DNA of 15,778 nucleotides from the IMG/VR virus record IMGVR_UViG_2909298281_000001, positions 1 through 15,778 of that record; one strand, given 5' to 3'. The notes beneath the pieces were generated by a model. It did not search any database. It was not told where the DNA came from and worked only from the letters and a program-made list of their open reading frames with translations. Shown one piece after another: positions 1 through 13,575 of the stretch; position 1 is the stretch's first letter, and every line of letters starts with the position of its first letter. This DNA comes from a virus (lineage: Duplodnaviria > Heunggongvirae > Uroviricota > Caudoviricetes). Made by a program: the position numbers and the translations under genes.

Positions 1-1260
1 ATGAAGCTCAACGCCAGACAGGTCGAGACCGCAAAGCCAAAAGACAAAACCTACAAAATGGCCGATGGTGGTGGTTTGTATCTTGAGGTTTCGGCCAAAG
101 GTTCCAAATACTGGCGCATGAAATACAGACGTCCCTCTGACAAAAAAGAGGATCGTCTCGCGTTTGGTGTTTGGCCTACTGTGACGCTTGCTCAGGCAAG
201 AGCAAAGCGCGATGAAGCCAAAAAGCTGTTAGCGCAGGGCATTGATCCAAAAGCCGAACAGAAAGAGGCTCAGGCCGAGAACTCGGGGGCATATACTTTC
301 GAAACCATTGCTCGTGAATGGCATGCTAGTAACAAGCGATGGAGTGAAGACCATCGATTGCGCGTTCTTCGCTATCTTGAACTTTATATCTTTCCATATA
401 TCGGTTCATCTGACATTCGCCAGCTCAAAACCAGCCACCTGTTAGCCCCTATTAAAAAGGTTGATGCCAGTGGCAAGCATGACGTTGCACAGCGTCTTCA
501 GCAGCGTGTCACGGCTATTATGCGTTATGCCGTGCAGAACGATTATATCGACTTTAATCCAGCCAGTGACATGGCCGGTGCGTTATCGACAACCAAAGCG
601 CGACATTACCCCGCCTTACCCTCCAGCAGGTTCCCTGAGTTTCTTGCTCGTCTTGCTGCATATCGTGGGCGTGTAATGACACGAATTGCGGTTGAGCTTT
701 CGTTACTTACTTTTGTGCGTTCCAGCGAGTTACGTTTCGCGCGTTGGGGTGAATTCGACTTCGATAAATCTCTTTGGCGCATACCTGCAAAACGAGAAGA
801 AATTAAAGGGGTGCGTTATTCGTACCGTGGCATGAAGATGAAAGAGGAGCATATCGTGCCGCTTAGTCGTCAGGCGATGAATTTATTAGACCAGCTAAAG
901 CAGATTAGTGGTGATAAGGAGCTGCTTTTTCCTGGTGATCATGACGCAACTAAGGTTATGAGTGAAAACACAGTAAACAGCGCATTACGTGCAATGGGAT
1001 ATGACACTAAGACTGAAGTGTGTGGACATGGATTTAGAACTATGGCTCGCGGTGCGTTAGGTGAGTCAGGGTTATGGAGCGACGACGCGATAGAACGGCA
1101 GTTAAGTCACTCAGAGCGCAACAATGTGCGTGCTGCATATATTCATACATCAGAACATTTAGAAGAACGACGCCTAATGATTCAATGGTGGGCTGATTAT
1201 CTTGATATGAATAAAACAACTTTCATCACGCCATTCGATTTTGCACGATTAAAAAAGTAA
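1..1260 (+). CDS. int: P4-family tyrosine integrase, 419 aa
   Basis: Full-length ORF. N-terminus MKLNARQVETAKPKDKTYK..GGGLYLEVS is typical of P4/IntS-like integrases. C-terminal catalytic-type motifs HGFRTMARG (HxxR) and RAAYIHTSEH (Tyr region). The window begins at the start codon, so attL and the target tRNA lie upstream, outside the window. Confidence 0.93.
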   Translation: MKLNARQVETAKPKDKTYKMADGGGLYLEVSAKGSKYWRMKYRRPSDKKEDRLAFGVWPTVTLAQARAKRDEAKKLLAQGIDPKAEQKEAQAENSGAYTFETIAREWHASNKRWSEDHRLRVLRYLELYIFPYIGSSDIRQLKTSHLLAPIKKVDASGKHDVAQRLQQRVTAIMRYAVQNDYIDFNPASDMAGALSTTKARHYPALPSSRFPEFLARLAAYRGRVMTRIAVELSLLTFVRSSELRFARWGEFDFDKSLWRIPAKREEIKGVRYSYRGMKMKEEHIVPLSRQAMNLLDQLKQISGDKELLFPGDHDATKVMSENTVNSALRAMGYDTKTEVCGHGFRTMARGALGESGLWSDDAIERQLSHSERNNVRAAYIHTSEHLEERRLMIQWWADYLDMNKTTFITPFDFARLKK

Positions 1261-1393: not shown

Positions 1394-2296
1394 ATGGAAA
1401 TATCGAAAAATAAAATTTGGGAAGCCAAAGAATGGGAATCTCATGTAAATGATTTACTCCGACTAAAATTTGGTGAAGTAAATTATATATCTATACCTGA
1501 TTTTCATAATGGGGACGCTGGAATTGAGGGATATTGTGTACAGGGATATGCTTTTCAGTCTTATTGTCCTAATGAGGCATGTACAGTTGATAAGTTGTAT
1601 GAAAAACAAAGAGACAAGATGACCGCGGATGTTGCAAAATTCATTTCAGATAAAAAGGGGTATTTAAAAGAAATTCTACAAAACACCAGAATAAAAAGAT
1701 GGATTTTGGTAGTGCCATCTCACTTATCTAAAAAATTGAATGTTCATGCAACAAAAAAAGAAAGTGAAGTTCTAGCTGCTAAATTACCTTATGTTGATAA
1801 TGATGATTTCAAGGTGCTTATTTGGGATCGAGAAAATTTCAAAAAAGAGGAAGATGAATTAATTAGCAGCGGGCTTAGATTATTGAGGATAGAACTTCCT
1901 GAAGTCGATATTAACGATATTGATAATCTAAAAGATAACAATAGCGAGTTTGGCGATAATATTTCAAGGAAGCTTAGAAAGATAAAAAATGATGAGCGTC
2001 AAGTACAGACAGCTTCAACTGTATTATTAAAAAATATAGTTATGTATAAAAACATCATGAGTGGCCTCAAAGATAACTATCCTAGTTTATATGAAAATAT
2101 AACAAATGGTATACTGGATCGTGAGCAAGATTTGTCCTTGGCTTTTTTTGATTCTGAAAATTTGACTCTGACTCAGCAAATTCAACACCTTAATGATAAG
2201 CTAAAACAGTCTAGCCGTCTTCATCAAGATAATCTAAAATGTATTTCTACCGGAGTGGTTGGTGATTGGCTAATGCGCTGTAATTTGGACTTTTAA
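1394..2296 (+). CDS. Hypothetical protein, 300 aa; first gene of hotspot cargo operon (candidate effector)
   Basis: ATG-initiated 300-aa ORF in a markedly A+T-rich segment. Stop TAA at 2294-2296 lies 2 nt before the next ATG (2299), consistent with an operon. No catalytic motif I can assign with confidence; the stretch IPDFHNGDAGIEGYCVQ could be a degenerate nuclease-like acidic motif but this is speculative. Confidence 0.6.
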   Translation: MEISKNKIWEAKEWESHVNDLLRLKFGEVNYISIPDFHNGDAGIEGYCVQGYAFQSYCPNEACTVDKLYEKQRDKMTADVAKFISDKKGYLKEILQNTRIKRWILVVPSHLSKKLNVHATKKESEVLAAKLPYVDNDDFKVLIWDRENFKKEEDELISSGLRLLRIELPEVDINDIDNLKDNNSEFGDNISRKLRKIKNDERQVQTASTVLLKNIVMYKNIMSGLKDNYPSLYENITNGILDREQDLSLAFFDSENLTLTQQIQHLNDKLKQSSRLHQDNLKCISTGVVGDWLMRCNLDF

Positions 2297-2298
2297 TC

Positions 2299-2763
2299 AT
2301 GGATATTCTAAAAGAAACGCCTGAAAAGATGACTTTTAACTCGACTGGTTCGCCTGTTGAACCCGAATTAAGACCCATCTGGAGAATATCCTTGCTTGCT
2401 ATCATTCTTAAAAAACTATGCAGAGGCTCTTCTGCGAGTTTAAAAAAAATGCAAGTTTTATATTCTTTGATTTCCTCCGCCGATAAAAGAAGTCGGTATT
2501 TCACTGAAGGAGGTAATGCGGATATAAGCATTCGGTTTGATCCTCTCTTAGATAGAGCTATTTCGTTGGGAGTGGCAGAAGGTATATTTACTTTGGATGC
2601 TGCAAAAAGCGTTGTGTTAACCAATAAGGGCACGCTCTTATCTAATAAAATTTACAAAGATTCAACATTATTCGTTTTTGAAAAGGAATTTATCGAGAAC
2701 TATAGTAAATCTGAATTTTCCGATAAAAAGATAGATCAAATATTATACAGGGGAATTATATGA
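2299..2763 (+). CDS. Hypothetical protein, 154 aa; middle gene of hotspot cargo operon
   Basis: ORF tightly packed between flanking genes; its stop TGA (2761-2763) overlaps the ATG of the next gene (2760-2762) as ATGA. AGGGGA Shine-Dalgarno-like sequence at 2748-2753 serves the downstream gene. No recognizable motif. Confidence 0.55.
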   Translation: MDILKETPEKMTFNSTGSPVEPELRPIWRISLLAIILKKLCRGSSASLKKMQVLYSLISSADKRSRYFTEGGNADISIRFDPLLDRAISLGVAEGIFTLDAAKSVVLTNKGTLLSNKIYKDSTLFVFEKEFIENYSKSEFSDKKIDQILYRGII

Positions 2764-3987
2764 GCAAACTTAAGATTGAGAGATTAATTATACGAACAAA
2801 TACTAGTGATGGAATATATGGGACAGACCTTAAATTTGGCTATGGTCTAAATATTATAAGTGCTGAGAACTCTTCTGGTAAATCCACCTGTATACAATCA
2901 ATTATTTATGCACTAGGATTGGAGGGAATATTGGGACCATCCAGAAAAAATCCCTTAAAGTCTGCTCTAACTACTAAATTACGTGATAATAATGATACTG
3001 AAATACCGGTTAATGAATCAAAAATTTATCTCCAACTTTCTAACGAACATTCAAGAAAAATAACTATTTTAAGAAAAAGTGATAGTGATATTTCAAAAAT
3101 CGTTACCGTATATGACTGTGAGTTCGATAAAATCAATCCTCACAAATTTACGGACTATTTTTTGAAAGATCCCGGTTCTGCTCAGCGTGAGAAAGGATTT
3201 CATTATTTTCTTTCGAATTTCTTAGGGATAACACAGCCCGAAGTGATTAAATATGATGGAACCAAGTGTCCACTTTATCTTGAGTCAATATTCACAGTTA
3301 ATTATGTAGAGCAAACAAGAGGTTGGGGTGGGATTCTAAATGTTATTCCTACTTACTTGGGTATTAAGGATTTATCACAAAACGTTCTTGAATATACTCT
3401 TAATTTAGATGTTCGAGAAATAAGAAAGAAACGCGAGATATTTTTAGATGAAAAGAAAAATCTTGAAACTAAATGGGCAAATACAATCTCAGAGTTAGAG
3501 TCTAATGCAAAGGCTTATGGCTTCTTTGTATCAACAAGAATACCTGATAAAATCACTACAAAATCAGATACCTATCAAGATAGTGATTTATATACATTGG
3601 ATGAAAATAATCGTGAGATTTCTTTACCACTATACAAGGCTCATAAAGAGAACGAATTAGAATATATTAGAGCACAATTAAAAAATAACGACATCCCTAA
3701 TGATGGGGTGTTAGATTCTGTTCTTGATAGTCTTCGAGTGAATTTAGCTAATCAAGAATATGCTCTTTCATTATTAATCTCTGACATAGAGTCTAATAAA
3801 CTGTATATAAGTTCAATTAATAAGAGTCTGACTGATACAAAAGAAAGTCTTAGAAAATATAGAGATATTGAAAAGCTTAAGTTATTGGGCTCGCAGGAGG
3901 ATTTTTCTTTTGTCACTGGTAGTTGCCCAACTTGTGGACAAGCCGTTGAAGATACTCTCTTACCAGCGAGCTTTGATGGAAAGACAT

Positions 3988-3996
3988 TAACGGTTG
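3988..3996. repeat. IS1 target-site duplication, left copy (TAACGGTTG)
   Basis: 9-bp TAACGGTTG immediately abuts the IS1 end and is repeated exactly at 4765-4773. Confidence 0.88.
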
Positions 3997-4011
3997 GGTA
4001 ATGACTCCAAC

Positions 4012-4515
4012 TTATTGATAGTGTTTTATGTTCAGATAATGCCCGATGACTTTGTCATGCAGCTCCACCGATTTTGAGAACGACAGCGACTTCCGTCCCA
4101 GCCGTGCCAGGTGCTGCCTCAGATTCAGGTTATGCCGCTCAATTCGCTGCGTATATCGCTTGCTGATTACGTGCAGCTTTCCCTTCAGGCGGGATTCATA
4201 CAGCGGCCAGCCATCCGTCATCCATATCACCACGTCAAAGGGTGACAGCAGGCTCATAAGACGCACCAGCGTCGCCATAGTGCGTTCACCGAATACGTGC
4301 GCAACAACCGTCTTCCGGAGCCTGTCATACGCGTAAAACAGCCAGCGCTGGCGCGATTTAGCCCCGACGTATCCCCACTGTTCGTCCATTTCTGCGCAGA
4401 CGATGACGTCACTGCCCGGCTGTATGCGCGAGGTTACCGACTGCGGCCTGAGTTTTTTAAGTGACGTAAAATCGTGTTGAGGCCAACGCCCATAATGCGG
4501 GCAGTTGCCCGGCAT
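4012..4515 (-). CDS. insB: IS1 transposase InsB reading frame, 167 aa (expressed as InsAB' fusion by -1 frameshift)
   Basis: Translation [25 protein letters not shown]...NIKHYQ matches IS1 InsB as I recall it; position and length are canonical within IS1. Confidence 0.9.
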
Positions 4516-4709
4516 CCAACGCCATTCATGGCCATATCAATGATTTTCTGGTGCGTACCGGGTTGAGAAGCGGTGTAAGTGAACTGCAGTTGCCATGTTT
4601 TACGGCAGTGAGAGCAGAGATAGCGCTGATGTCCGGCGGTGCTTTTGCCGTTACGCACCACCCCGTCAGTAGCTGAACAGGAGGGACAGCTGATAGAAAC
4701 AGAAGCCAC
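4434..4709 (-). CDS. insA: IS1 InsA transposition repressor, 91 aa
   Basis: Translation [43 protein letters not shown]... with zinc-finger CxxC..CxxC and HTH region; canonical IS1 InsA length. Confidence 0.93.
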
Positions 4710-4764
4710 TGGAGCACCTCAAAAACACCATCATACACTAAATCAGTAAGTTGGCAGCATCACC

Positions 4765-4773
4765 TAACGGTTG
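4765..4773. repeat. IS1 target-site duplication, right copy (TAACGGTTG)
   Basis: Exact repeat of 3988-3996 immediately after the IS1 terminal repeat. Confidence 0.88.
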
Positions 4774-5582
4774 AAGATAATATAAAGTATCTAGAAAAAA
4801 CCTATGCAGTATTTGATAGCTTGGCAAAAAGTGAAAAAATAAAATTTGAAAGAAAAGAAGCTGCATTAAAAGTAGCTAATGCTAAAGTTCGAGACTTGCG
4901 TAATCAGATCAAAGAAGTTCAGCGTAGCATATCATCTCCTATAAACTCCGAGCTTAGAGAACTCATAAGAAAGGAAGTTAAACTGGAAAAGGATATCGAC
5001 ATTTTAAACTCACTGGAGGAATTCGAAATTAGTAAAAAAGATACACTTATGGCTGTTCTTTCTGATTGGTATGATTGTAATAATCAACTAACAGTACTTC
5101 CGTATGATGGTTTTAGCAAAGCAGATATATTAAAGTTGAGGTTATTACGTGATTCATTTAAATCAAACTTGGAGGATTTTGGTTATAAAAGTACACCAAT
5201 TGAAGAGTTTGATTTATCGAGAAATACATACAAACCAACTGTCGATGGTATAGATATCGGCTCTGAAGCATCCGCCAGTGATAACATTAGGGTGATTTGG
5301 TCATATTTGTATTCATTGTTGATGTTAGATTCCAGTGCAAGAGATATCTCAACTAATCATTTGGGACTGTTGATTATGGATGAACCAAGACAGCAAGAAA
5401 CTAAAGATGCTAGTTTTAGAACACTAATTAAGAAAGCATCTGAGTCGTATATTCAAGAAAAACAGATTATTATGGGTACTAGTGAAAAATTTACTGATTT
5501 AATTGCCATGCTGGATGGTTTGCATGTGAATCTTTTGCATTTCGATAGTAATATTATCCGTAAACAGTAAATCCCTCAATGT

Positions 5583-5830: not shown

Positions 5831-5933
5831 CGCCCGCTTTGCGGGGCGGTTTTAATGCAGTTGCACTGACACGCTCAGGCCGCGCCGGGAATGGCGCGGT
5901 CTGCAGAAAATGAGGCAAGAAAACGCATGCAAA

Positions 5934-5964
5934 GCCATGCACCTTATCGATGCATGGCTTTTTT
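5934..5964. terminator. Hairpin plus T-run downstream of psu (candidate terminator, possibly bidirectional)
   Basis: GCCATGCA (5934-5941), 9-nt loop, TGCATGGC (5951-5958), then TTTTTT (5959-5964) on the plus strand. On the minus strand the same hairpin lies about 30 nt past the psu stop but with a weaker U-tract. Confidence 0.4.
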
Positions 5965-5994
5965 CAGTAAAAACGGGCAGATTTTCGGGGAGTT

Positions 5995-6567
5995 TTACAC
6001 AGACTGATGTGATGCCAGTTGCGCACTTTTACGCGAAAAAATCATGTTCTGCGCAGGGGTGAATTTTTCACGGCTGTCATCCACCGAAGCCGCGTCAGGC
6101 CTGAATCCGATGGTCGTTAAAATGTCGCTATCCTGTGCGGAATAATTAATTTTTTCACCCTTCGCAAGCCAGGACAGGAGGGCTTCACGCAGGGCATCTG
6201 TGGCACGCTGTATGGCACAGTTTCGGGCAATGACCGTCAGTTCACTGTAGCCCATCAGCTCCGGTGCCAGTGCGGCCGCCAGTACTGTGCCGTGCTGCTG
6301 CATAAAATCATTCAGCCGGTCGCGGATGCTGATGTGCTGAACGGCTTCATGCGAACGAATATAACGACCGGCGGCCTGATTCACCTGCCATTTTCTGACT
6401 TCGATAATATTGCGTAATTCGTCCAGGCGACTGACGTTTCTGCCTTCTCCTGACAGAAGCCGCAGGTATTCCTGTTCGGCCGCTGCCAGCTCATTTTTGC
6501 GTTGCAGCCATGCTGCTTTGTTATTCTGATAGGTGTCAAAGGCCTGCTGTAAGGCTGTGCTTTCCAT
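5995..6567 (-). CDS. psu: Psu polarity-suppression protein (capsid decoration / Rho antagonist), 190 aa
   Basis: 190-aa ORF beginning MESTALQQAFDTYQNNKAAWLQRKNELAAAEQEY... Length and sequence character match P4 Psu as I recall it, and it is the last gene of a sid-delta-psu order. Confidence 0.9.
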   Translation of the reverse strand: MESTALQQAFDTYQNNKAAWLQRKNELAAAEQEYLRLLSGEGRNVSRLDELRNIIEVRKWQVNQAAGRYIRSHEAVQHISIRDRLNDFMQQHGTVLAAALAPELMGYSELTVIARNCAIQRATDALREALLSWLAKGEKINYSAQDSDILTTIGFRPDAASVDDSREKFTPAQNMIFSRKSAQLASHQSV

Positions 6568-6640
6568 CGTTATCTCTTTCTCATCATGCTGAAGAATAAA
6601 AATACGGTGTGCGGCGACGGCCGGTGTTAACCGGCAGCCC

Positions 6641-7141
6641 TCATTCCAGACGCAGCGAATATGATTGTGTTTTTAACCGTACTGGCGGCAGTTCCTGTTT
6701 TTCATGCAGGCGTTCTGCCAGTTCGTCCGGTGTGACCGGGCGGACAATGAAGCGGTTGATGGTCTGAAGCGTTTTAAACACCAGACCACAGCCCGGATCC
6801 GTGCACACATAAAAACGCTCGGTGACTTCCTGAGAGAGACGCCGCGATGTTCTTGACAGTGCAAGGCCTTTACATCTCCGACAACAATATCCGGTAACAA
6901 GCATTCTTTTCGGGCGTTTCATACTGCCGGAGGCTGACGTCAGTGAATCGCGGTATCTCTGTTTGCCTGAAATGTATTCCATTCCTGAATCTTTACTGTC
7001 AGAGAAAAAGCTTTCACTCGCTTCAAATGTCGCAGAGCAATAAATATTCCGGCACTGTGCAATCATTATCTTGGTGCCATCGTCCATGAAATGTGCGCGG
7101 CGGGTGTGAGCAACATGTCCACACGACGGGCAGTAAATCAT
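6641..7141 (-). CDS. delta: Delta late-gene transcriptional activator (tandem Ogr-like zinc-finger protein), 166 aa
   Basis: Two Ogr-type cysteine clusters (CPSCGH...CRNIYC and CRRC...CTDPGC) in a 166-aa protein, the P4 Delta length as I recall. ATGA overlap with the sid stop (7138-7141). Confidence 0.9.
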   Translation of the reverse strand: MIYCPSCGHVAHTRRAHFMDDGTKIMIAQCRNIYCSATFEASESFFSDSKDSGMEYISGKQRYRDSLTSASGSMKRPKRMLVTGYCCRRCKGLALSRTSRRLSQEVTERFYVCTDPGCGLVFKTLQTINRFIVRPVTPDELAERLHEKQELPPVRLKTQSYSLRLE

Positions 7142-7872
7142 GACAGCAGTCCTCTGGCCTTAAGCTCTGCTCCCTGCTGGTCTATTTTGTCCTGCCACAC
7201 CTTGCGCTGTGCCGGTGTGCCCGCCACCTCATAATCCATGTGCGGAAGTGTTGCCGCTGACAGTCCGGTCAGCCGGAGAACCGGCTCGCCGGTGAGGCTG
7301 ATTTGCATCTGTTTTATTTTCTGTTCCAGCGATGATTTCACCTGCTGCATGACAGCTTTATCGGGTGCGACGTAGCCCTGATGCCCGGTGGTGTTGGCGA
7401 GCGGATTTTCCTGTACCAGAATGCTCAGATGCATTGCCCGGACAAGCGCCTCACAGGTTTCATTCAGGGCGTGTTCCAGCTCATGCTCTGCATACAGACT
7501 CAGCAGGTGATGATGTGCCTTCCGGTAGGCGGTGGCCGTGCTGTCACACGCCCCTTTCAGGCGTTCACGTTCGAAATTCAGCACCACGGCCAGATTGTCA
7601 TATTCCTGTACCAGCTCCCGGCGTGCCACGCGCTCAATGTGGCGCTGTTTCAGCTCGTCGCTCAGGACACCACCGGCTGCACGAAAGGCCGTGCGCCAGT
7701 CGTCAGCGTCGTTTCCGTCGGCCTGCGCCAGCGCATTTTTTTCCTGCTCTGCCCGTTCAATGGCCGCGACGGTCTCATCCATCAGGCGGGCGTTCTCAAG
7801 ATGGGCGGCTCTGGCCTTTTCCAGTTGTGCCAGTGCGGGTTGCAGATATTCAGGGATAGTGTGGTCAGACAT
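7138..7872 (-). CDS. sid: Sid external scaffold (capsid size determination) protein, 244 aa from the ATG at 7872
   Basis: The track ORF (7138..7890) starts at a GTG. The in-frame ATG at 7870-7872 is preceded on the minus strand by GAGGAG about 8 nt upstream and gives 244 aa, the P4 Sid length as I recall. Coiled-coil-like, alanine-rich sequence. Confidence 0.85.
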   Translation of the reverse strand: MSDHTIPEYLQPALAQLEKARAAHLENARLMDETVAAIERAEQEKNALAQADGNDADDWRTAFRAAGGVLSDELKQRHIERVARRELVQEYDNLAVVLNFERERLKGACDSTATAYRKAHHHLLSLYAEHELEHALNETCEALVRAMHLSILVQENPLANTTGHQGYVAPDKAVMQQVKSSLEQKIKQMQISLTGEPVLRLTGLSAATLPHMDYEVAGTPAQRKVWQDKIDQQGAELKARGLLS

Positions 7873-7897
7873 TTTCCGGCTCCTCGTCACTTCAGGT

Positions 7898-7962
7898 TAA
7901 GAAAATTGTGACGTACACCGGACAACAACACGACGCATTGCAGATGTGCCAGCCCTGACACA
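7898..7962 (-). promoter_or_regulatory. Candidate Psid late promoter with two TGT-N12-ACA Delta/Ogr-type dyads
   Basis: Dyads TGTGCCAGCCCTGACACA (7945-7962) and TGTGACGTACACCGGACA (7907-7924), centres about 38 bp apart. With a predicted leftward start near 7898 (a CACAAT -10-like hexamer on the minus strand at 7910-7905), they sit at about -55 and -17. I recall P4 late promoters carrying an extra activator site near -18. Confidence 0.5.
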
Positions 7963-8041
7963 GGAGACTCATCCTCAGACCGGCAAGCCAGGAAAAGGTC
8001 GCAGGAAAAACCGGCTTACTGTTTGTTTTTTTATATTTTAC

Positions 8042-8145
8042 TGTTCACCTCTGTTCACCATAAGAAAAAAGATAAGTAATACAGTAAGTTAAAGGGTGAA
8101 CAATCGCAGTAATGACTGTTCACCGTCTGTTCACCACTGTTCACC
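8042..8145. repeat. Iteron cluster (TGTTCACC octamers), candidate P4-type ori
   Basis: Five direct copies of TGTTCACC (8042-8049, 8052-8059, 8118-8125, 8128-8135, 8138-8145) and one inverted copy GGTGAACA (8095-8102). The same octamer recurs in the crr repeats downstream of alpha, about 4.8 kb away, consistent with the P4 ori/crr arrangement as I recall it. Confidence 0.6.
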
Positions 8146-8302
8146 CGTTAATGGGCTTTTTGTGCTGTTCATTACTTTTTATTTTTATTAATTCACTGAA
8201 ATAAATAAGAAAAAACAATTTGTATTTCACTATAATTTTTTCCAGCTCCTTCCAGAGCGTTTTAAAGCTATCTGCGCTGATGTACAAAAAATACACAGCC
8301 AT

Positions 8303-8365
8303 TGTAAGACTGCCGGAACAAATCCCCCCTGTTGCGTCTGCCGAAAATATTCACAAAATAAAGCG
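8303..8365 (+). promoter_or_regulatory. Candidate PLL late promoter upstream of vis
   Basis: TGT-N12-ACA dyad TGTAAGACTGCCGGAACA (8303-8320) followed about 45 bp later by a CACAAA -10-like hexamer (8352-8357) resembling the Psid CACAAT. A second, imperfect dyad lies near 8339-8355. Start site predicted around 8365. Confidence 0.4.
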
Positions 8366-8422
8366 CTACCCGAAGCCGGACGGACTTATCCGGTGCTGTA
8401 TGGACATTAACGAGGTAGCCCG

Positions 8423-8689
8423 ATGCAAGCTGTTTTTTCTTCCCCGTCTCCCGCCCCTGTGACGCCACTGATGCCGCTGCCGGACATCACGCAGGAGCGT
8501 TTTTTACGTCTGCCGGAAGTGATGCACCTGTGCGGCCTGTCACGCTCGACCATCTATGAACTCATCCGTAAGGGGGAATTTCCGCCGCAGGTGAGTCTTG
8601 GCGGTAAAAATGTGGCCTGGCTGCACTCTGAAGTCACCGCATGGATGGCCGGGCGCATTGCCGGACGCAAACGGGGGTACGACGCATGA
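8423..8689 (+). CDS. vis: Vis-like / AlpA-family helix-turn-helix regulator, 88 aa
   Basis: GAGG 7 nt upstream of the ATG. Sequence ...[28 protein letters not shown].. is AlpA/Vis-type HTH in character. 88 aa matches the P4 orf88 (vis) length as I recall. Confidence 0.75.
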
Positions 8690-8724
8690 TGATGCCTGTT
8701 CTGCAAAAAGTCCCTTTTTCTGGC

Positions 8725-8754
8725 TTGCCTTTTTCCGGCATTTGCGGATATAGT
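8725..8754 (+). promoter_or_regulatory. Candidate PLE early/immunity promoter (sigma-70 type)
   Basis: -35 TTGCCT (8725-8730), 18-bp spacer, -10 TATAGT (8749-8754). Lies just upstream of the seqA-like element at about 8784-8810. Confidence 0.4.
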
Positions 8755-8929
8755 TTTTCCGCTGTCGCAAAATCGGCAGCCGGGCGTAGGAACCCGTGTA
8801 ACTCGAAGGCGACATATGACGCGCCATGCGTCTTTTTTTGTGTCGCAATCAACGCCACAGAGCGCCAGATTATGGTGTGGCGTGTGGTTTGCCGTGCAGG
8901 TATGATCCTGTTCGCAATCGCATGTTATG

Positions 8930-9008
8930 CCACTGAGTCAATGGTAGCTCAGGCGGGGCAGCCTCCGGGCTGGCCGGTATTCTTCGAGGCCGGTATTCCT
9001 ACCCCCGT
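8930..9008 (+). ncRNA. Candidate CI immunity RNA (P4-type RNA repressor) containing a seqB-like element; boundaries approximate
   Basis: A segment TTCTTCGAGGCCGGTATTCCTACCC (about 8980-9004) is complementary to two flanking elements that share GCGTAGGAAC...CTCGAAGG (about 8784-8810 and 9028-9068), matching the seqA/seqB/seqC logic of P4 immunity as I recall it. Ends cannot be set from sequence alone. Confidence 0.35.
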
Positions 9009-9078
9009 CTGGGCTATCGCCATCGAGCGTAGGAACTCCGGCGATAGCAGTTATTTGCTACTCGAAGGAGACGGCCTT

Positions 9079-9276
9079 ATGGCTACAACCCTTACCCCCT
9101 CACACCCTGAATTTGTCTTTGTGTTTGCGGCTGTCCGTCGCGCAGACCGTCATCCCCGTATCTGTATGCTTCGCACCGTCGCCGGTGATGAACGCAGTGC
9201 CCGCCGTTCCCTTGTCCGTGACTATGTGCTCTCCCTTGCTGCCCGTCTGCCGGTGGTGGAGGTGTCCCGTGCGTAA
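9079..9276 (+). CDS. Small protein, 65 aa, kil-like by position (first translated gene after the immunity RNA)
   Basis: ATG at 9079 preceded by AAGGAG (9065-9070), which lies inside the downstream seqC-like element. Stop overlaps the next gene's GTG start (GTGCGTAA, 9269-9276). Confidence 0.45.
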
Positions 9277-9556
9277 TAAAAAAGCCCCTCAGACCGTCTC
9301 AGCGCGTCATGACGCCCGTGAACACCTCAGCATTGAGGCTTACCATAAGCTCAACCGCGCCAGCGCCGTATCCCAGTTTGTTGGGGGTGATTTGATTCAC
9401 CGTGAACTCTCCGGCCTGCATCAGCTCTACATTCCGCATATTTTCAGCTACCTGAATGAAGATATTGATTTTGTGCTGAATGAGCTGAAAGCCAAAGGCC
9501 TGTGCCGCGATTTTCTCGCCCAGCAGAAAGACCGGGGAGACAGGACGCATGTTTGA
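9269..9556 (+). CDS. Epsilon-like small protein, about 95 aa from the GTG start (assignment by position)
   Basis: GTG at 9269 is preceded by GGAGG (9258-9262) and is in frame with the track ORF 9113..9556. Its stop overlaps the orf151 start. Sits immediately upstream of orf151 as the epsilon gene does in P4, as I recall. Confidence 0.5.
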
Positions 9557-10004
9557 TTTTCCCCAGCCCGGTGAGATTTACCGTTCTGCCGGTTTTCCCG
9601 ATGTGGCCGTGGTCGGCATTCTGGAAGACGGTATTCCGTGGGAAATGCCGTACCGCTGCCCGGACATTGTCTGGAACCCGTACCGCCGTAAATTCAGTAT
9701 CCTTGTGCGTATCCTCGCTGACGGGCGCACCACAGACATCCCGCTGGGGCGTTTTCTGCGGGAATTTACCTGTGACCGTCCTGACCTGTTTAAACGCAGC
9801 CCCGTAAACCGGCATGCGGTACTGAAAGAAATGGCCGGAGACCCGGAATTACAGAAATGGCGGGAGAAATATCTGGATATTTACCCGCAGGACCCTGTTC
9901 CGGTCAGCCGGGCGGCACCGGTGGCGCGGGAATGGCGGGAAATTCCCCGCACGGAGCCTGACCCGGAAATCACCCCGGATAACAGTTACCGCAATTATCT
10001 GTAA
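9549..10004 (+). CDS. P4 orf151-like protein, 151 aa
   Basis: Exact 151-aa length, position between the epsilon-like gene and alpha, and start overlapping the upstream stop (ATGTTTGA). Confidence 0.8.
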   Translation: MFDFPQPGEIYRSAGFPDVAVVGILEDGIPWEMPYRCPDIVWNPYRRKFSILVRILADGRTTDIPLGRFLREFTCDRPDLFKRSPVNRHAVLKEMAGDPELQKWREKYLDIYPQDPVPVSRAAPVAREWREIPRTEPDPEITPDNSYRNYL

Positions 10005-10139
10005 TTAAAAAACGACACCCGAAAAATTAAATGTGCGTATTCGCGCAGGGATACGCACGTCTTCAGGAGACGCAGATATGCCTTATCAGTTAATGCAACC
10101 GGCACGGAATGCAGTCATCTGTCACAGGGAGGAAAGCAA

Positions 10140-10460
10140 ATGAAAACACCCTTACCGCCCGTCTTACGCGCTGCCCTTTACCGTCGTGCTGTCGCCTGTG
10201 CCTGGCTGACCGTGTGCGAACGTCAGCACCGCTACCCGCATCTCACCCTTGAGTCACTGGAGGCGGCCATCGCCGCTGAGCTGGAAGGCTTTTATCTGCG
10301 CCAGCACGGTGAGGAAAAAGGGCGTCAGATAGCCTGTGCCCTGCTGGAAGATTTAATGGAATCCGGCCCCCTGAAGGCCGCGCCGTCGCTGTCCTTTCTC
10401 GGGCTGGTTGTGATGGATGAACTCTGTGCCCGTCACATAAAAGCGCCGGTACTGCACTGA
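10140..10460 (+). CDS. P4 orf106-like protein, 106 aa
   Basis: 106-aa ORF immediately upstream of alpha with matching codon usage. The name is from recollected P4 ORF nomenclature. Confidence 0.7.
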
Positions 10461-10474
10461 AGGAGAACTACACC

Positions 10475-12808
10475 ATGAAAATGAACGTAACCGCCACCGT
10501 CAGTCATGCGCTCGGCCACTGGCCGCGTATTCTCCCGGCGCTGGGGATTCAGGTGCTGAAAAACCGTCATCAGCCCTGTCCGGTCTGTGGCGGGAGTGAC
10601 CGCTTCCGTTTTGATGACAGGGAGGGGCGCGGCACCTGGTACTGCAATCAGTGTGGTGCCGGTGACGGCCTGAAACTGGTTGAAAAGGTGTTTGGTGTTT
10701 CCCCGTCCGACGCGGCCGCAAAGGTGGCTGCCGTGACCGGCAGCCTGCCCCCGGCTGACCCGGCAGTGACGGCCGCCGCCGTTGCTGAAACAGAAGCCGC
10801 CCGGAAGAACGCCGCCGCACTGGCACAAACCCTGATGGCGAAAACCCGTCCCGGAACCGGTAACGCCTACCTGACCCGCAAGGGCTTTCCCGGCCGGGAA
10901 TGCCGGATGCTGACCGGCACACACAGAGCCGGTGGCGTGAGCTGGCGCGCCGGTGACCTTGTGGTGCCACTGTATGACGACAGCGGCGAACTGGTTAACC
11001 TTCAGTTAATCAGTGCTGACGGCCGTAAGCGCACCCTGAAAGGCGGACAGGTCAGGGGCACCTGTCACATCCTTGAAGGACAGAATCAGGCCGGAAAACG
11101 TCTGTGGATAGCGGAGGGATACGCGACCGCACTTACCGTGCATCACCTGACCGGTGAAACGGTGATGGTGGCGCTTTCTTCCGTGAACCTCCTTTCTCTG
11201 GCCAGACTTGCCCGGCAGAAGCATCCGGCCTGTCAGATTGTCCTTGCCGCAGACCGTGACCTCAGCGGTGACGGCCAGAAAAAAGCCGCCGCAGCCGCAG
11301 ATGCGTGTGAAGGTGTTGTTGCCCTGCCGCCGGTCTTCGGTGACTGGAATGATGCCTTCACGCAGTACGGCGGGGAGGCCACCCGTAAGGCCATTTACGA
11401 TGCCATCCGGCCACCGGCTGAAAGCCCGTTCGACACCATGAGCGAAGCGGAGTTTTCCGCCATGAGTACCAGCGAAAAGGCCATGCGTATCTATGAGCAT
11501 TACGGCGAGGCGCTCGCGGTCGATGCCAACGGCCAGCTTCTGTCCCGTTATGAAAATGGTGTCTGGAAGGTGCTGCCGCCACAGGACTTTGCCCGGGATG
11601 TGGCCGGGCTGTTTCAGCGGCTGCGCGCGCCGTTCTCCTCCGGGAAGGTGGCCTCCGTGGTGGACACCCTGAAGCTGATTATTCCGCAGCAGGAAGCCCC
11701 CTCCCGCCGCCTGATTGGCTTTCGTAACGGTGTGCTCGACACACAGAACGGCACGTTCCACCCGCACAGTCCGTCACACTGGATGCGCACCCTGTGTGAT
11801 GTGGATTTCACCCCACCGGTGGAAGGGGAAACGCTGGAAACCCACGCCCCCGCGTTCTGGCGCTGGCTTGACCGTGCCGCCGGTGGCCGTGCGGAAAAAC
11901 GCGACGTGATTCTGGCCGCACTGTTTATGGTGCTGGCAAACCGCTACGACTGGCAGCTCTTTCTGGAGGTGACCGGTCCCGGCGGCAGCGGCAAAAGTAT
12001 CATGGCCGAAATAGCCACCCTGCTGGCCGGGGAGGATAACGCCACATCGGCCACCATTGAGACGCTGGAATCCCCGCGTGAACGTGCCGCGTTAACTGGC
12101 TTCTCACTGATACGCCTGCCTGACCAGGAAAAATGGAGCGGCGACGGTGCCGGACTCAAGGCCATCACCGGCGGCGATGCGGTGTCCGTTGACCCGAAAT
12201 ACCGGGATGCGTACTCCACGCACATCCCGGCGGTGATTCTGGCCGTGAACAATAACCCGATGCGCTTCACCGACCGCAGCGGCGGCGTGTCACGCCGGCG
12301 GGTGATTATTCACTTCCCTGAACAGATAGCCCCGCAGGAGCGCGACCCGCAGCTTAAGGACAAAATCACCCGCGAGCTGGCGGTCATCGTGCGTCACCTG
12401 ATGCAGAAATTCAGCGACCCGATGCTCGCCCGGTCACTGCTTCAGTCCCAGCAGAACTCAGACGAGGCGCTGAACATCAAACGGGATGCCGACCCGACGT
12501 TTGATTTTATCGGCTATCTGGAAACCCTGCCGCAGACCAGCGGCATGTATATGGGGAACGCCAGTATCATCCCGCGCAATTACCGTAAATACCTCTATCA
12601 CGCCTATCTGGCCTACATGGAGGCAAACGGCTACCGGAACGTACTCAGTCTGAAAATGTTCGGGCTGGGGCTGCCGGTGATGCTGAAGGAATACGGACTG
12701 AATTACGAGAAGCGCCATACCAAACAGGGGATACAGACCAACCTGACACTGAAAGAGGAAAGCTACGGCGACTGGCTGCCAAAATGTGACGACCCTGCAA
12801 CAGCCTGA
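10475..12808 (+). CDS. alpha: Alpha primase-helicase replication protein, 777 aa
   Basis: AAGGAGA ribosome-binding site (10460-10466). N-terminal zinc-binding CPVCGGSDRF...YCNQCGAGDG followed by a primase-type acidic region (..LAADRDLSGDGQ..). Central Walker A GPGGSGKS and D5-type SF3 helicase region. 777 aa is the P4 alpha length as I recall. Confidence 0.95.
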   Translation: MKMNVTATVSHALGHWPRILPALGIQVLKNRHQPCPVCGGSDRFRFDDREGRGTWYCNQCGAGDGLKLVEKVFGVSPSDAAAKVAAVTGSLPPADPAVTAAAVAETEAARKNAAALAQTLMAKTRPGTGNAYLTRKGFPGRECRMLTGTHRAGGVSWRAGDLVVPLYDDSGELVNLQLISADGRKRTLKGGQVRGTCHILEGQNQAGKRLWIAEGYATALTVHHLTGETVMVALSSVNLLSLARLARQKHPACQIVLAADRDLSGDGQKKAAAAADACEGVVALPPVFGDWNDAFTQYGGEATRKAIYDAIRPPAESPFDTMSEAEFSAMSTSEKAMRIYEHYGEALAVDANGQLLSRYENGVWKVLPPQDFARDVAGLFQRLRAPFSSGKVASVVDTLKLIIPQQEAPSRRLIGFRNGVLDTQNGTFHPHSPSHWMRTLCDVDFTPPVEGETLETHAPAFWRWLDRAAGGRAEKRDVILAALFMVLANRYDWQLFLEVTGPGGSGKSIMAEIATLLAGEDNATSATIETLESPRERAALTGFSLIRLPDQEKWSGDGAGLKAITGGDAVSVDPKYRDAYSTHIPAVILAVNNNPMRFTDRSGGVSRRRVIIHFPEQIAPQERDPQLKDKITRELAVIVRHLMQKFSDPMLARSLLQSQQNSDEALNIKRDADPTFDFIGYLETLPQTSGMYMGNASIIPRNYRKYLYHAYLAYMEANGYRNVLSLKMFGLGLPVMLKEYGLNYEKRHTKQGIQTNLTLKEESYGDWLPKCDDPATA

Positions 12809-12815
12809 CCCACCT

Positions 12816-12841
12816 GACCGGCATCTGCCGGTCTTTTTTTT
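12816..12841 (+). terminator. Rho-independent terminator after alpha
   Basis: GACCGGCA-TC-TGCCGGTC perfect 8-bp stem (12816-12833) followed directly by a run of eight T (12834-12841), 8 nt after the alpha stop. Confidence 0.75.
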
Positions 12842-12856
12842 ATCCCGATATCCCCC

Positions 12857-13160
12857 GAAGGTGAACAATCCACTGTTCACCCTTCACCGTATGTTCACCC
12901 GTTATCACACTGAAATTAAAAGAGAAAAACGAAAGGTGAACAGTGTGAACAATCAAATCAAAAAAAACTTTTTTCTTCCTGAGTGATTTCAGTACGGGGG
13001 ATTAATCACCGGTATGAGTCACACCGGCAGAATGCCGGAGGTGAAGAATCGAATGTTCACCCTTCACCCATTATTCACCATCTATTACTCTGAAATAAAA
13101 GGAGAAAATCAAAGGGTGAACAGTGTGAACAGTTCTTCCGAAAAAAAATTTTTTATGTGG
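12857..13160. repeat. crr (cis replication region): two direct repeats of about 120 bp, each with several TGTTCACC/GGTGAACA iterons
   Basis: Unit 1 about 12857-12980 and unit 2 about 13037-13160 align closely (e.g. ..GTTCACCCTTCACC..CTGAAAT.AAAAG.AGAAAA.C.AAAGGTGAACAGTGTGAACA..AAAAAAA.TTTTTT). The about 60-bp spacing matches my recollection of P4 crr. Confidence 0.7.
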
Positions 13161-13344
13161 GTAAAAGATGCACTGGTTTGGATCCGAGCTACGGATCCAA
13201 ACTCACTGATTAAAAATTAGTTAACTTTCCGATTTGTTGATGGGTTGAAAATAGATTGGTCAGAAAAACAGTGGGGGCACAAAAGGGGGCATATTTCATT
13301 TTTGTTTTTTATTATTTGTTTTTTATCATTGACTTATTTTGATA

Positions 13345-13366
13345 TTTGAGTCCGGCCTTCGCACCT
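13345..13366 (+). other. Candidate attR core: degenerate copy of a tRNA 3' end (right boundary of the element)
   Basis: TTTGAGTCCGGCCTTCGCACC resembles a tRNA T-arm/acceptor 3' end (TTCGAGTCCGGCCTTCGGCACCA type), with one substitution and one deletion relative to my recollection of a leucine tRNA end. Located after crr where attR is expected. Confidence 0.45.
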
Positions 13367-13575
13367 TCGCACCATCGGAACATCAATAGACATCAACGGA
13401 CGTTTTTTTATGACTGAAATCCGCGCCACACAAGGCTTTTCGCTATTTTTCGCTCAACCTAAGTCAACCTACATCAACTTACTGATGTGGATACAGCTAC
13501 AGCTGCGGCTATACCCCGATTCGATAATGTTTGTACCCACACAAAACCCTTGAAAGGCTACAAGGCTGAAATTGT

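What the first reader, a model, noticed from the sequence alone, without database searches (positions are those of the whole stretch)
7898..7962. Psid-type late promoter with two phased TGT-N12-ACA activator sites
Two perfect TGT-N12-ACA dyads lie 38 bp apart upstream of sid on the minus strand. With the CACAAT -10-like element and the GAGGAG ribosome-binding site they give a coherent promoter model: sites at about -55 and about -17, a start near 7898 and a 26-nt leader. This dual-site arrangement is what I recall distinguishing P4 late promoters from P2 ones.
Basis: partly seen in the sequence, partly recalled or inferred. Interest (0 to 1): 0.4.

Follow-up and report, generated by a model that had tools for sequence, protein, structure and literature searches.

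The report
Known P4 sid late promoter
This stretch is base-for-base the well-studied late promoter (Psid) of satellite phage P4, with its two activator-binding dyads, sitting in a P4-type prophage; it is real but already known.

Summary
Two perfect TGT-N12-ACA dyads lie at 7945-7962 and 7907-7924, 38 bp apart, upstream of sid on the minus strand. CACAAT sits at 7905-7910, GAGGAG at 7880-7885 and the sid ATG at 7872.

Window 5831-13368 is 97.3% identical to phage P4. The 191 bases around the finding are 100% identical to both P4 GenBank records. This is therefore P4's own Psid promoter, which drives sid-delta-psu.

If +1 is placed at 7898, the dyad centres fall at -55.5 and -17.5. In phage P2, annotated start sites put the activator sites at -55.5 to -58, and P2 shows no second dyad near -18. 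The published delta footprints at -55 and -18 are recalled from memory, because the primary papers were not readable here.

The new detail is comparative. Across 48 distinct promoter versions from P4-like elements, site I is always perfect and the 38-bp offset never changes. Site II is perfect almost only in the P4 lineage. Elsewhere it reads TGT-N12-AGA, with a CAGAAT -10 hexamer.

"Phased" is a misnomer, since 38 bp is 3.6 helical turns. Verdict: already known, low interest.

The parts
7945..7962 (-). Site I: the upstream activator (delta/Ogr) dyad TGTGTCAGGGCTGGCACA. It spans -64..-47 and is centred at -55.5 if +1 = 7898.
   Evidence: Exact pattern match. 100% identical to P4. A perfect TGT-N12-ACA at the homologous place in all 22 usable GTDB loci and in all 25 distinct versions pooled with IMG/VR. 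The extended consensus is TGTGYCA-N4-TGSCACA. The IMG/VR matches were selected with a pattern that required this site.
7907..7924 (-). Site II: the downstream dyad TGTCCGGTGTACGTCACA. It spans -26..-9 and is centred at -17.5. Its ACA arm is bases 2-4 of the -10 hexamer.
   Evidence: Exact pattern match. Identical to P4. The offset from site I is 38 bp in every relative. The dyad is perfect only in the P4 lineage and reads TGT-N12-AGA in most relatives.
7905..7910 (-). The -10-like hexamer CACAAT (4 of 6 matches to TATAAT). No usable -35 hexamer lies upstream; TCGTGT at 17-bp spacing matches 2 of 6.
   Evidence: Sequence. The consensus scan finds no sigma-70-type promoter in 7700-8500. Relatives carry CAGAAT at this place.
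7898..7898 (-). Predicted transcription start (an A, 7 nt after the hexamer). This is inferred, not measured.
   Evidence: Geometry only. The -10 hexamer falls at -12..-7 and site I is centred at -55.5, as at P2 PP, PO and PV where start sites are annotated.
7880..7885 (-). Ribosome-binding site GAGGAG, 7 nt upstream of the sid ATG.
   Evidence: Conserved as GAGGAG or GAGGAA in relatives.
7138..7872 (-). sid (244 aa), encoding the capsid size-determination external scaffold. It is the first gene of the late operon.
   Evidence: Two amino-acid differences from P4 Sid. P4 annotation.
6641..7141 (-). delta (166 aa), the activator encoded by the operon it activates. It carries two Ogr/Delta zinc fingers.
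   Evidence: Pfam PF04606 matches in two stretches. All eight zinc-finger cysteines are present. The two differences from P4 (residues 72-73) lie in the linker.
5995..6567 (-). psu (190 aa), the last gene of the operon.
   Evidence: Pfam PF07455 at E = 5.6e-87. Five differences from P4 Psu.
8303..8320 (+). Perfect dyad TGTAAGACTGCCGGAACA of the divergent late promoter PLL, about 103 bp upstream of vis/ORF88 (8423-8689).
   Evidence: Placing the dyad centre at -55.5 puts the start near 8364-8367, after the CAAAAT/CACAAA hexamer. Perfect only in the P4 lineage.

Best explanation
This is the Psid late promoter of a P4-type satellite prophage, identical in sequence to that of phage P4.

It is a sigma-70 promoter with a weak -10 hexamer (CACAAT) and no -35 element, so it is silent on its own. 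It fires when a small zinc-finger activator of the Ogr family binds the dyad centred at -55 (site I, 7945-7962) and recruits RNA polymerase through the alpha-subunit C-terminal domain. The activator can be the helper phage's Ogr or the satellite's own delta. The transcript starts near 7898, has a leader of about 26 nt, and encodes sid, delta and psu. Because delta is in the operon, it forms a positive loop.

The second dyad (site II, 7907-7924, centred at about -18) overlaps the spacer and the upstream half of the -10 hexamer. I take it to be a second delta-binding site. My inference from its position is that it tunes output, most likely by damping it at high delta occupancy, rather than providing the primary activation.

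Shown here: the sequence identity, the geometry, the conservation, and the presence of an intact delta gene. Taken from the literature: activator dependence, binding at -55, and the alpha contact. Recalled from memory: the delta footprint at -18. Inferred: the direction of the site II effect.
For: - Identity: window 5831-13368 is 97.3% identical to P4, and 191 nt around the promoter are 100% identical to X51522 and X02534.
- Operon: sid, delta and psu follow in P4 order and are nearly identical to P4. Delta has two Ogr_Delta zinc fingers.
- Promoter type: no sigma-70 consensus promoter is found in 7700-8500.
- Geometry: with +1 = 7898, site I is centred at -55.5. The annotated activator sites of P2 PP, PO and PV sit at the same distance from annotated start sites, and PF sits at -57.5.
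- Literature: Ogr binds inverted repeats centred at about -55 and needs contact with RNA polymerase alpha (PMC3152322). Mutations in ogr suppress rpoA109 L290H (PMC11434276). TGT-N12-ACA is the late-promoter consensus (PMC3931495).
- Conservation of site I: it is perfect in all 22 usable loci from about 15 enterobacterial genera whose Sid proteins are 57-66% identical to this one. The site I to site II / -10 spacing is invariant at 38 bp, while the distance to the ATG varies from 85 to 91.
- Conservation of site II: its arms resemble site-I half-sites family-wide. The distal arm reads TGTGTG/C. The proximal arm, reverse-complemented, reads TCTGCC, against TGTG(C/G)C for site I.
- Tolerance of imperfect sites: genuine P2 sites carry one mismatch (TGT-N12-CCA), so imperfect arms can still work.
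- Prevalence: the same promoter occurs at 95% identity or more in 983 of 5426 complete E. coli genomes.
Against: - No transcript end, footprint or reporter data were or could be produced here, so +1 = 7898 is a geometric inference.
- The primary papers on Psid could not be read. These are Dale 1986, Van Bokkelen 1991, Julien & Calendar 1995 and Reiter 1998. The -18 footprint and any published role of site II therefore rest on my memory.
- Site II conservation cannot be separated cleanly from constraint on the -10 hexamer and the -35-region block (TCGTGTTGTTGT), which it overlaps.
- The perfect second dyad is confined to the P4 lineage. A strong site II is therefore not required for the promoter to work across the family.
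Confidence: 0.92

Rival explanations
1. Site II is a positive, cooperative element. Delta is a covalent tandem of two Ogr-like domains. On this view it needs both dyads, or bridges them, for full activation of Psid, in the way spacer-binding activators remodel a promoter.
For: Delta has two zinc-finger domains. Site II-like arms and the exact 38-bp offset are conserved in 48 distinct promoter versions. Only the satellite promoters have a second site, and P2 promoters do not.
Against: Single-domain Ogr activates one-site P2 promoters from -55 alone. The two centres are 3.6 turns apart, which is unfavourable for direct side-by-side cooperation. A protein covering -26..-9 would collide with sigma region 2/3 contacts at the -10 hexamer. 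Most relatives carry a weakened arm (AGA).
Confidence: 0.25
2. Site II is not a functional site. The second perfect dyad is a by-product of a conserved TGT-rich -35-region block and a -10 hexamer that happens to read CACAAT in the P4 lineage.
For: The dyad is perfect in only 5 of 35 distinct IMG/VR versions and in 2 of 22 GTDB loci, essentially all of them P4 itself. Both arms overlap blocks that are conserved for promoter reasons anyway. The internal symmetry of site II is modest, mostly 3-5 of 9 pairs against 6-8 for site I.
Against: The chance of two perfect dyads in one prespecified 100-bp stretch is about 2.5e-4. The free positions of the proximal arm (GGC before AGA, giving TCTGCC) match the site-I half-site. 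The C/G difference is neutral for the -10 consensus, so it is not explained by promoter strength. I recall a published delta footprint centred at -18 (Julien & Calendar 1995; text not readable).
Confidence: 0.1
3. The dyads serve replication rather than transcription. They lie inside the stretch annotated as the P4 origin region and might be alpha-protein or host-factor sites.
For: The P4 records annotate rep_origin as 9086-9809, which spans the promoter and the start of sid. Ori type-1 repeats (GGTGAACAG) lie about 80-250 bp upstream of site I.
Against: The annotated ori repeats have a different sequence and stop well upstream of site I. The dyads match the Ogr-family consensus at the canonical -55 position relative to a -10 hexamer and a gene start. 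The rep_origin feature is only a broad fragment boundary.
Confidence: 0.02

Closest known systems
Phage P4 Psid (sid / late rightward promoter), GenBank X51522 and X02534
   Same: Identical over at least 191 nt, including both dyads, the -10 hexamer, the RBS and the sid start. The operon is the same (sid-delta-psu) and the divergent PLL/ori neighbourhood is the same.
   Different: Nothing differs in the promoter. The surrounding element differs slightly from P4: 97.3% identity overall, an integrase at 89.6%, and a different cargo between int and cos. The GenBank records do not annotate the promoter. X02534 carries an old 'consensus -10' feature that falls inside site I (window 7954-7960).
Phage P2 late promoters PP, PO, PV and PF (NC_001895)
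   Same: Each has an activator dyad centred at -55.5 to -57.5 from an annotated start site. None has a -35 element. The same Ogr-family activators and the same RNA polymerase alpha contact apply.
   Different: PP, PO and PF have a single site, with no dyad of one mismatch or fewer near -18. The P2 sites are imperfect (TGT-N12-CCA in PO/PP and PF), whereas both Psid sites are perfect.
Psid-equivalent promoters of other P4-like satellites (Klebsiella, Raoultella, Citrobacter, Enterobacter, Mangrovibacter, Tatumella and others)
   Same: Site I is perfect at the same place. The 38-bp offset to the second element is the same, as are the conserved TCGTGTTGTTGT block, the RBS and the position of the sid start.
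   Different: The -10 hexamer is CAGAAT, so the second element reads TGT-N12-AGA. The interior of site II is variable. No perfect PLL-type dyad occurs within 750 bp upstream.
P4 PLL (late leftward promoter), window 8303-8320
   Same: It has a perfect TGT-N12-ACA about 55 bp upstream of a CA(C)AAA(T)-type -10 hexamer, and it diverges from Psid across the ori region.
   Different: No perfect second dyad is present. The only candidates are a one-mismatch dyad centred near -80 (TGATGTACAAAAAATACA, overlapping a TGT-N11-ACA) and another centred near -28. These were not resolved here.

Membership tests
P4 Psid promoter (by identity) | Nucleotide identity with the region upstream of sid in phage P4 | tested here: met
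   100% identity over 191 nt to X51522 and X02534. 97.3% identity over 7.5 kb of surrounding sequence.
Ogr/delta-dependent late promoters of P2/P4 | Inverted repeat TGT-N12-ACA centred at about -55 from the start site | tested here: met
   Perfect dyad at 7945-7962. Its centre is at -55.5 relative to the start predicted from the -10 hexamer. P2 promoters with annotated start sites give the same distance. The consensus and the -55 rule are stated in PMC3931495 and PMC3152322. The start site itself is inferred.
Ogr/delta-dependent late promoters of P2/P4 | A -10-like hexamer with no recognisable -35 hexamer | tested here: met
   CACAAT matches 4 of 6. The best -35 candidate at 17-bp spacing, TCGTGT, matches 2 of 6. 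The consensus scan finds no sigma-70 promoter in 7700-8500.
Ogr/delta-dependent late promoters of P2/P4 | Drives a late or helper-exploitation operon, with a cognate Ogr-family activator present | tested here: met
   sid, delta and psu lie immediately downstream. Delta carries two PF04606 zinc fingers with all cysteines intact.
Ogr/delta-dependent late promoters of P2/P4 | Transcription depends on Ogr or delta and on the RNA polymerase alpha C-terminal domain (rpoA109-sensitive) | not testable with these tools
   This needs in vivo or in vitro transcription.
P4-type dual-site late promoter | A second activator dyad centred at about -18, overlapping the spacer and the -10 hexamer | tested here: met
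   Perfect dyad at 7907-7924, centred at -17.5. It is absent from P2 PP, PO and PF.
P4-type dual-site late promoter | Delta protein physically occupies the -18 site | not testable with these tools
   I recall this from Julien & Calendar 1995 (J Bacteriol 177:3743) and Reiter et al. 1998 (J Bacteriol 180:5151). Both citations are confirmed in reference lists, but the texts are not held.
P4-type dual-site late promoter | The two sites lie on the same face of the helix ('phased') | tested here: not met
The centre-to-centre distance is 38 bp, or 3.6 turns at 10.5 bp per turn.

The most novel reading that the evidence does not exclude
The perfect second dyad may be a P4-lineage-specific state. It would arise from a single base in the -10 hexamer (CACAAT against CAGAAT in most P4-like satellites). 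That base is neutral for sigma-70 recognition, but it completes the ACA arm. If so, P4 proper would have a stronger delta operator over its own -10 element than its relatives do. The effect would be a lineage-specific negative-feedback or helper-discrimination setting on the sid-delta-psu operon.
Probability: 0.3. Interest if true: 0.3.

Novelty: already known. Interest (0 to 1): 0.08.

Why it matters
For a genome scan, this shows that the window carries a complete P4-type satellite prophage whose late-operon control region is intact and identical to the textbook element. The element should therefore respond to a P2-like helper. It adds nothing to what was established for P4 in the 1980s and 1990s.

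The one item of modest value is the family-wide comparison. Site I and the 38-bp offset are invariant. The second site is a perfect dyad essentially only in P4 itself, because of one base in the -10 hexamer. That gives a clean, single-base experiment for what site II does.

Tried and rejected
- **Primary papers.** I tried to read them and none is held: PMID 7601839 / PMC177091, PMC107552, PMC207153, PMC213327, PMC372931, PMC3518693 and PMC4836473. Full-text searches for Psid, the sid promoter and PLL returned only passing citations. The mapped start and the -18 footprint could therefore not be quoted.
- **GenBank and RefSeq P4 records.** They carry no promoter annotation for Psid. The 'consensus -10' in X02534 maps inside site I and looks like a guess made before the promoter was mapped, so I did not use it.
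- **Distant blastn in E. coli genomes.** A search with the 158-bp promoter returned only copies of 95% identity or more. It gave no divergent variants, so diversity came from Sid-anchored loci and an IMG/VR pattern scan instead.
- **Replication-site reading.** I considered that the dyads belong to the replication origin, because the rep_origin feature spans them. I rejected this because the annotated ori repeats are different sequences and lie further upstream.
- **Other dyads in the window.** Six further TGT-N12-ACA matches occur at 4323, 5076, 8797, 10000, 12785 and 12892. Six against about 3.5 expected is unremarkable. One is in IS1 and one overlaps an ori-type repeat in crr. I did not pursue them.
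- **Antisense ORFs.** The plus-strand ORFs overlapping the region (7381-7911 and 7532-7900) are antisense to sid and have no support.

Full report
**What is in the sequence**

Reading the minus strand gives, in order:
- TGTGTCAGGGCTGGCACA (7962->7945)
- 20 nt of spacer
- TGTCCGGTGTACGTCACA (7924->7907)
- AT, which completes CACAAT (7910->7905)
- TTTCTT, then AACCTGAAGTGAC
- GAGGAG (7885->7880), then CCGGAAA
- ATG at 7872

A pattern search confirms both exact TGT-N12-ACA matches, 38 bp apart. The ORF from the ATG at 7872 to 7138 encodes 244 aa. The mechanical ORF list starts it at an upstream GTG (7890), which lies before the ribosome-binding site.

**Is it more than chance?**

The window has 9 such dyads. 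expects 3.7, and 2 of 200 shuffles reach 9. My Markov simulation expects 3.5, with P(>=9) = 0.008. Two dyads within 60 bp of each other occur somewhere in 5% of simulated windows. Two dyads in one prespecified 100-bp stretch have a probability of about 2.5e-4. Three of the nine are the Psid pair and the dyad at 8303-8320, which I take to be the divergent late promoter PLL. The other six are unremarkable.

**What it is**

Megablast of 5900-13000 against phage records hits phage P4 (X51522 / NC_001609) at 97.5% identity over the whole query. A direct comparison shows window 5831-13368 collinear with P4 at 97.3%, and the integrase at 1-1211 at 89.6%.

An alignment of 7860-8050 with both P4 records is 100% identical in all 191 columns. 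The finding is therefore P4's own region upstream of sid.

Downstream lie sid (2 amino-acid differences from P4), delta (2 differences) and psu (5 differences). Delta matches the Ogr/Delta zinc-finger family in two stretches. It keeps all eight cysteines, and its two differences (residues 72-73) lie in the linker.

The P4 GenBank and RefSeq records do not annotate this promoter. The same 158 bp occur at 95% identity or more in 983 of 5426 complete E. coli genomes.

**Geometry**

Taking CACAAT as -12..-7 puts +1 at A7898. Site I then spans -64..-47 (centre -55.5) and site II spans -26..-9 (centre -17.5).

As a calibration I used the P2 RefSeq record, which annotates late start sites and activator binding sites. 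The P2 dyads or annotated sites are centred at -55.5 for PP, PO and PV, and at about -57.5 for PF.

A held paper states that Ogr binds conserved inverted repeats centred at about -55 and must contact the RNA polymerase alpha subunit (PMC3152322). Another records that ogr mutations suppress rpoA109 L290H (PMC11434276). A third gives TGT-N12-ACA as the late-promoter consensus, citing Julien & Calendar 1995 (PMC3931495).

No -35-like hexamer is present, and the consensus scan finds no sigma-70 promoter anywhere in 7700-8500. That fits an activator-dependent promoter.

The numbers I recall from Julien & Calendar 1995 are delta footprints at -55 in all six P2/P4 late promoters and a second one at -18 in Psid. 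They match this geometry exactly. I could not read that paper or Reiter et al. 1998, so they are marked as recollection.

**The dual-site claim**

P2 PP, PO and PF have no second dyad, even allowing one mismatch, anywhere near -18.

Two corrections apply:
- The sites are not helically phased. 38 bp is 3.6 turns.
- The genuine P2 sites are themselves imperfect (TGT-N12-CCA in PO/PP and PF). 'Perfect dyad' is not the functional criterion.

**Comparative evidence (the only new part)**

I collected Sid homologues, aligned 26 of them and used the alignment to fetch 24 loci from species-representative genomes. The loci come from Mangrovibacter, Scandinavium, Enterobacter, Citrobacter, Kluyvera, Tatumella, Atlantibacter, Klebsiella, Buttiauxella, Raoultella, Superficieibacter and others. 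Their Sid proteins are mostly 57-66% identical to this one.

In all 22 loci with a usable upstream region:
- Site I is a perfect TGT-N12-ACA, with the extended form TGTGYCA-N4-TGSCACA.
- A second element starts exactly 38 bp downstream of site I, although the distance to the ATG varies from 85 to 91.

That second element is a perfect dyad only in the window and in one near-identical contig (L004, Sid 98% identical to this one). In the other 20 loci it reads TGT-N12-AGA, because the -10 hexamer is CAGAAT.

A pattern scan of IMG/VR required site I, the TGT and CA[C/G]AAT at the right spacing. As distinct 58-mers these are 5 with C and 30 with G. Of the 45 C matches, 44 have exactly the P4 site II sequence.

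The C/G base is position 3 of the hexamer, where the consensus is T. The change is therefore neutral for sigma-70 recognition but makes or breaks the ACA arm.

The free positions of the site II arms resemble site-I half-sites. The distal arm reads TGTGTG/C. The proximal arm, reverse-complemented, reads TCTGCC, against TGTG(C/G)C for site I. Overall symmetry is lower than for site I: mostly 3-5 of 9 pairs, against 6-8 for site I and 1-3 for a spacer control.

These counts are descriptive only. The sequences are related to one another, and the IMG/VR set was selected by the search pattern.

**How it most likely works**

- *Shown or literature-based.* The promoter is silent without an activator. 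Ogr from a P2-type helper, or the satellite's own delta, binds site I at -55 and recruits RNA polymerase through alpha-CTD. The transcript encodes Sid, Delta and Psu, so delta reinforces its own synthesis.
- *Inferred.* Site II covers the spacer and the first bases of the -10 hexamer. A bound protein there would be expected to hinder sigma contacts. I therefore favour a tuning or damping role at high delta levels. I put this at roughly 0.5 within the site II question, against 0.25 for a positive cooperative role and 0.1-0.25 for no role. The fact that most relatives carry a weakened arm argues that a strong site II is not essential for promoter function.

**Comparison with known systems, and novelty**

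The promoter is a member, by identity, of the best-studied example of its class. Every sequence-level defining feature is met. The biochemical ones (activator dependence, footprint, mapped start) cannot be tested with these tools. Nothing about the finding is new, so it is already known and of low interest. The lineage-specific state of site II is a minor observation that suggests a one-base experiment.

**Context noticed along the way**

- The cargo region between int and cos (1394-5570) encodes a Lamassu defence system, LmuA, LmuC and LmuB. lmuB is split by an IS1 insertion.
- Rfam finds the P4 immunity RNA (C4, 8937-9024) and isrK (8761-8838).
- No tRNA gene lies in the window.
- No complete E. 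coli genome in the collection holds more than 77% of the window in one place.

Noticed in passing
window 1394-5570: The cargo region between int and cos encodes a Lamassu anti-phage system in place of P4's cII, beta and gop. It comprises LmuA (1394-2296), LmuC (2299-2763) and LmuB. lmuB is split into an N-terminal part (2760-4001) and a C-terminal part (4821-5570) by an IS1 insertion (insB 4012-4515, insA 4434-4709), so the system is probably inactivated.
   Followed up: partly
window ~7970-8010 (minus strand, about -72 to -112 from the predicted start): The block TTTTTCCTGCGACCTTTTCCTGGCTTGCCGG lies just upstream of site I. It is nearly invariant in 21 distinct P4-like loci and is better conserved than the flanks of site I. 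It contains TTTTCCTG twice, 13 bp apart, and sits between the ori type-1 repeats and the promoter. I do not know its function; a Vis, IHF or alpha site is possible.
   Followed up: no
window 8303-8320 and 8278-8297: The PLL dyad TGTAAGACTGCCGGAACA is perfect only in the P4 lineage. None of 17 other P4-like loci has a perfect dyad elsewhere within 750 bp upstream of sid, apart from one ori-repeat match. Candidates for a second PLL site are a one-mismatch dyad, overlapping a TGT-N11-ACA, centred near -80, and a one-mismatch dyad centred near -28.
   Followed up: partly
window 6641-7141 (delta), codons 72-73: Delta reads Gly-Ser where both P4 GenBank records read Cys-Gly (GGCAGT against TGCGGT). 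The residues lie in the linker between the two zinc-finger halves and are not zinc ligands. This could be natural variation or an old sequencing error in the P4 records.
   Followed up: partly
window 7954-7960 (equivalent to X02534 1570-1576): GenBank X02534 annotates a 'consensus -10 sequence' on the sid strand that falls inside site I. None of the P4 records annotates Psid, its start site or the activator sites. The P2 RefSeq record does annotate its equivalents.
   Followed up: yes
window 8761-8838 and 8937-9024: Rfam matches above the gathering score to isrK (69 bits) and C4 antisense RNA (74 bits). This is the P4 immunity region downstream of vis.
   Followed up: no
window 1-1211 versus 5831-13368: The integrase is 89.6% identical to P4 int, whereas the rest of the element is 97.3% identical. 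No complete E. coli genome in the collection holds more than 77% of the window in one place. The element is therefore a mosaic with an uncommon combination of cargo and IS1.
   Followed up: partly
window 4323, 5076, 8797, 10000, 12785, 12892: Six further perfect TGT-N12-ACA matches occur. The one at 4323 is inside IS1. The one at 12892 overlaps an ori-type repeat (TGTTCACC) just past the end of the alpha gene, where crr maps in P4. They are probably chance, and none was examined for a downstream -10 hexamer or gene.
   Followed up: no
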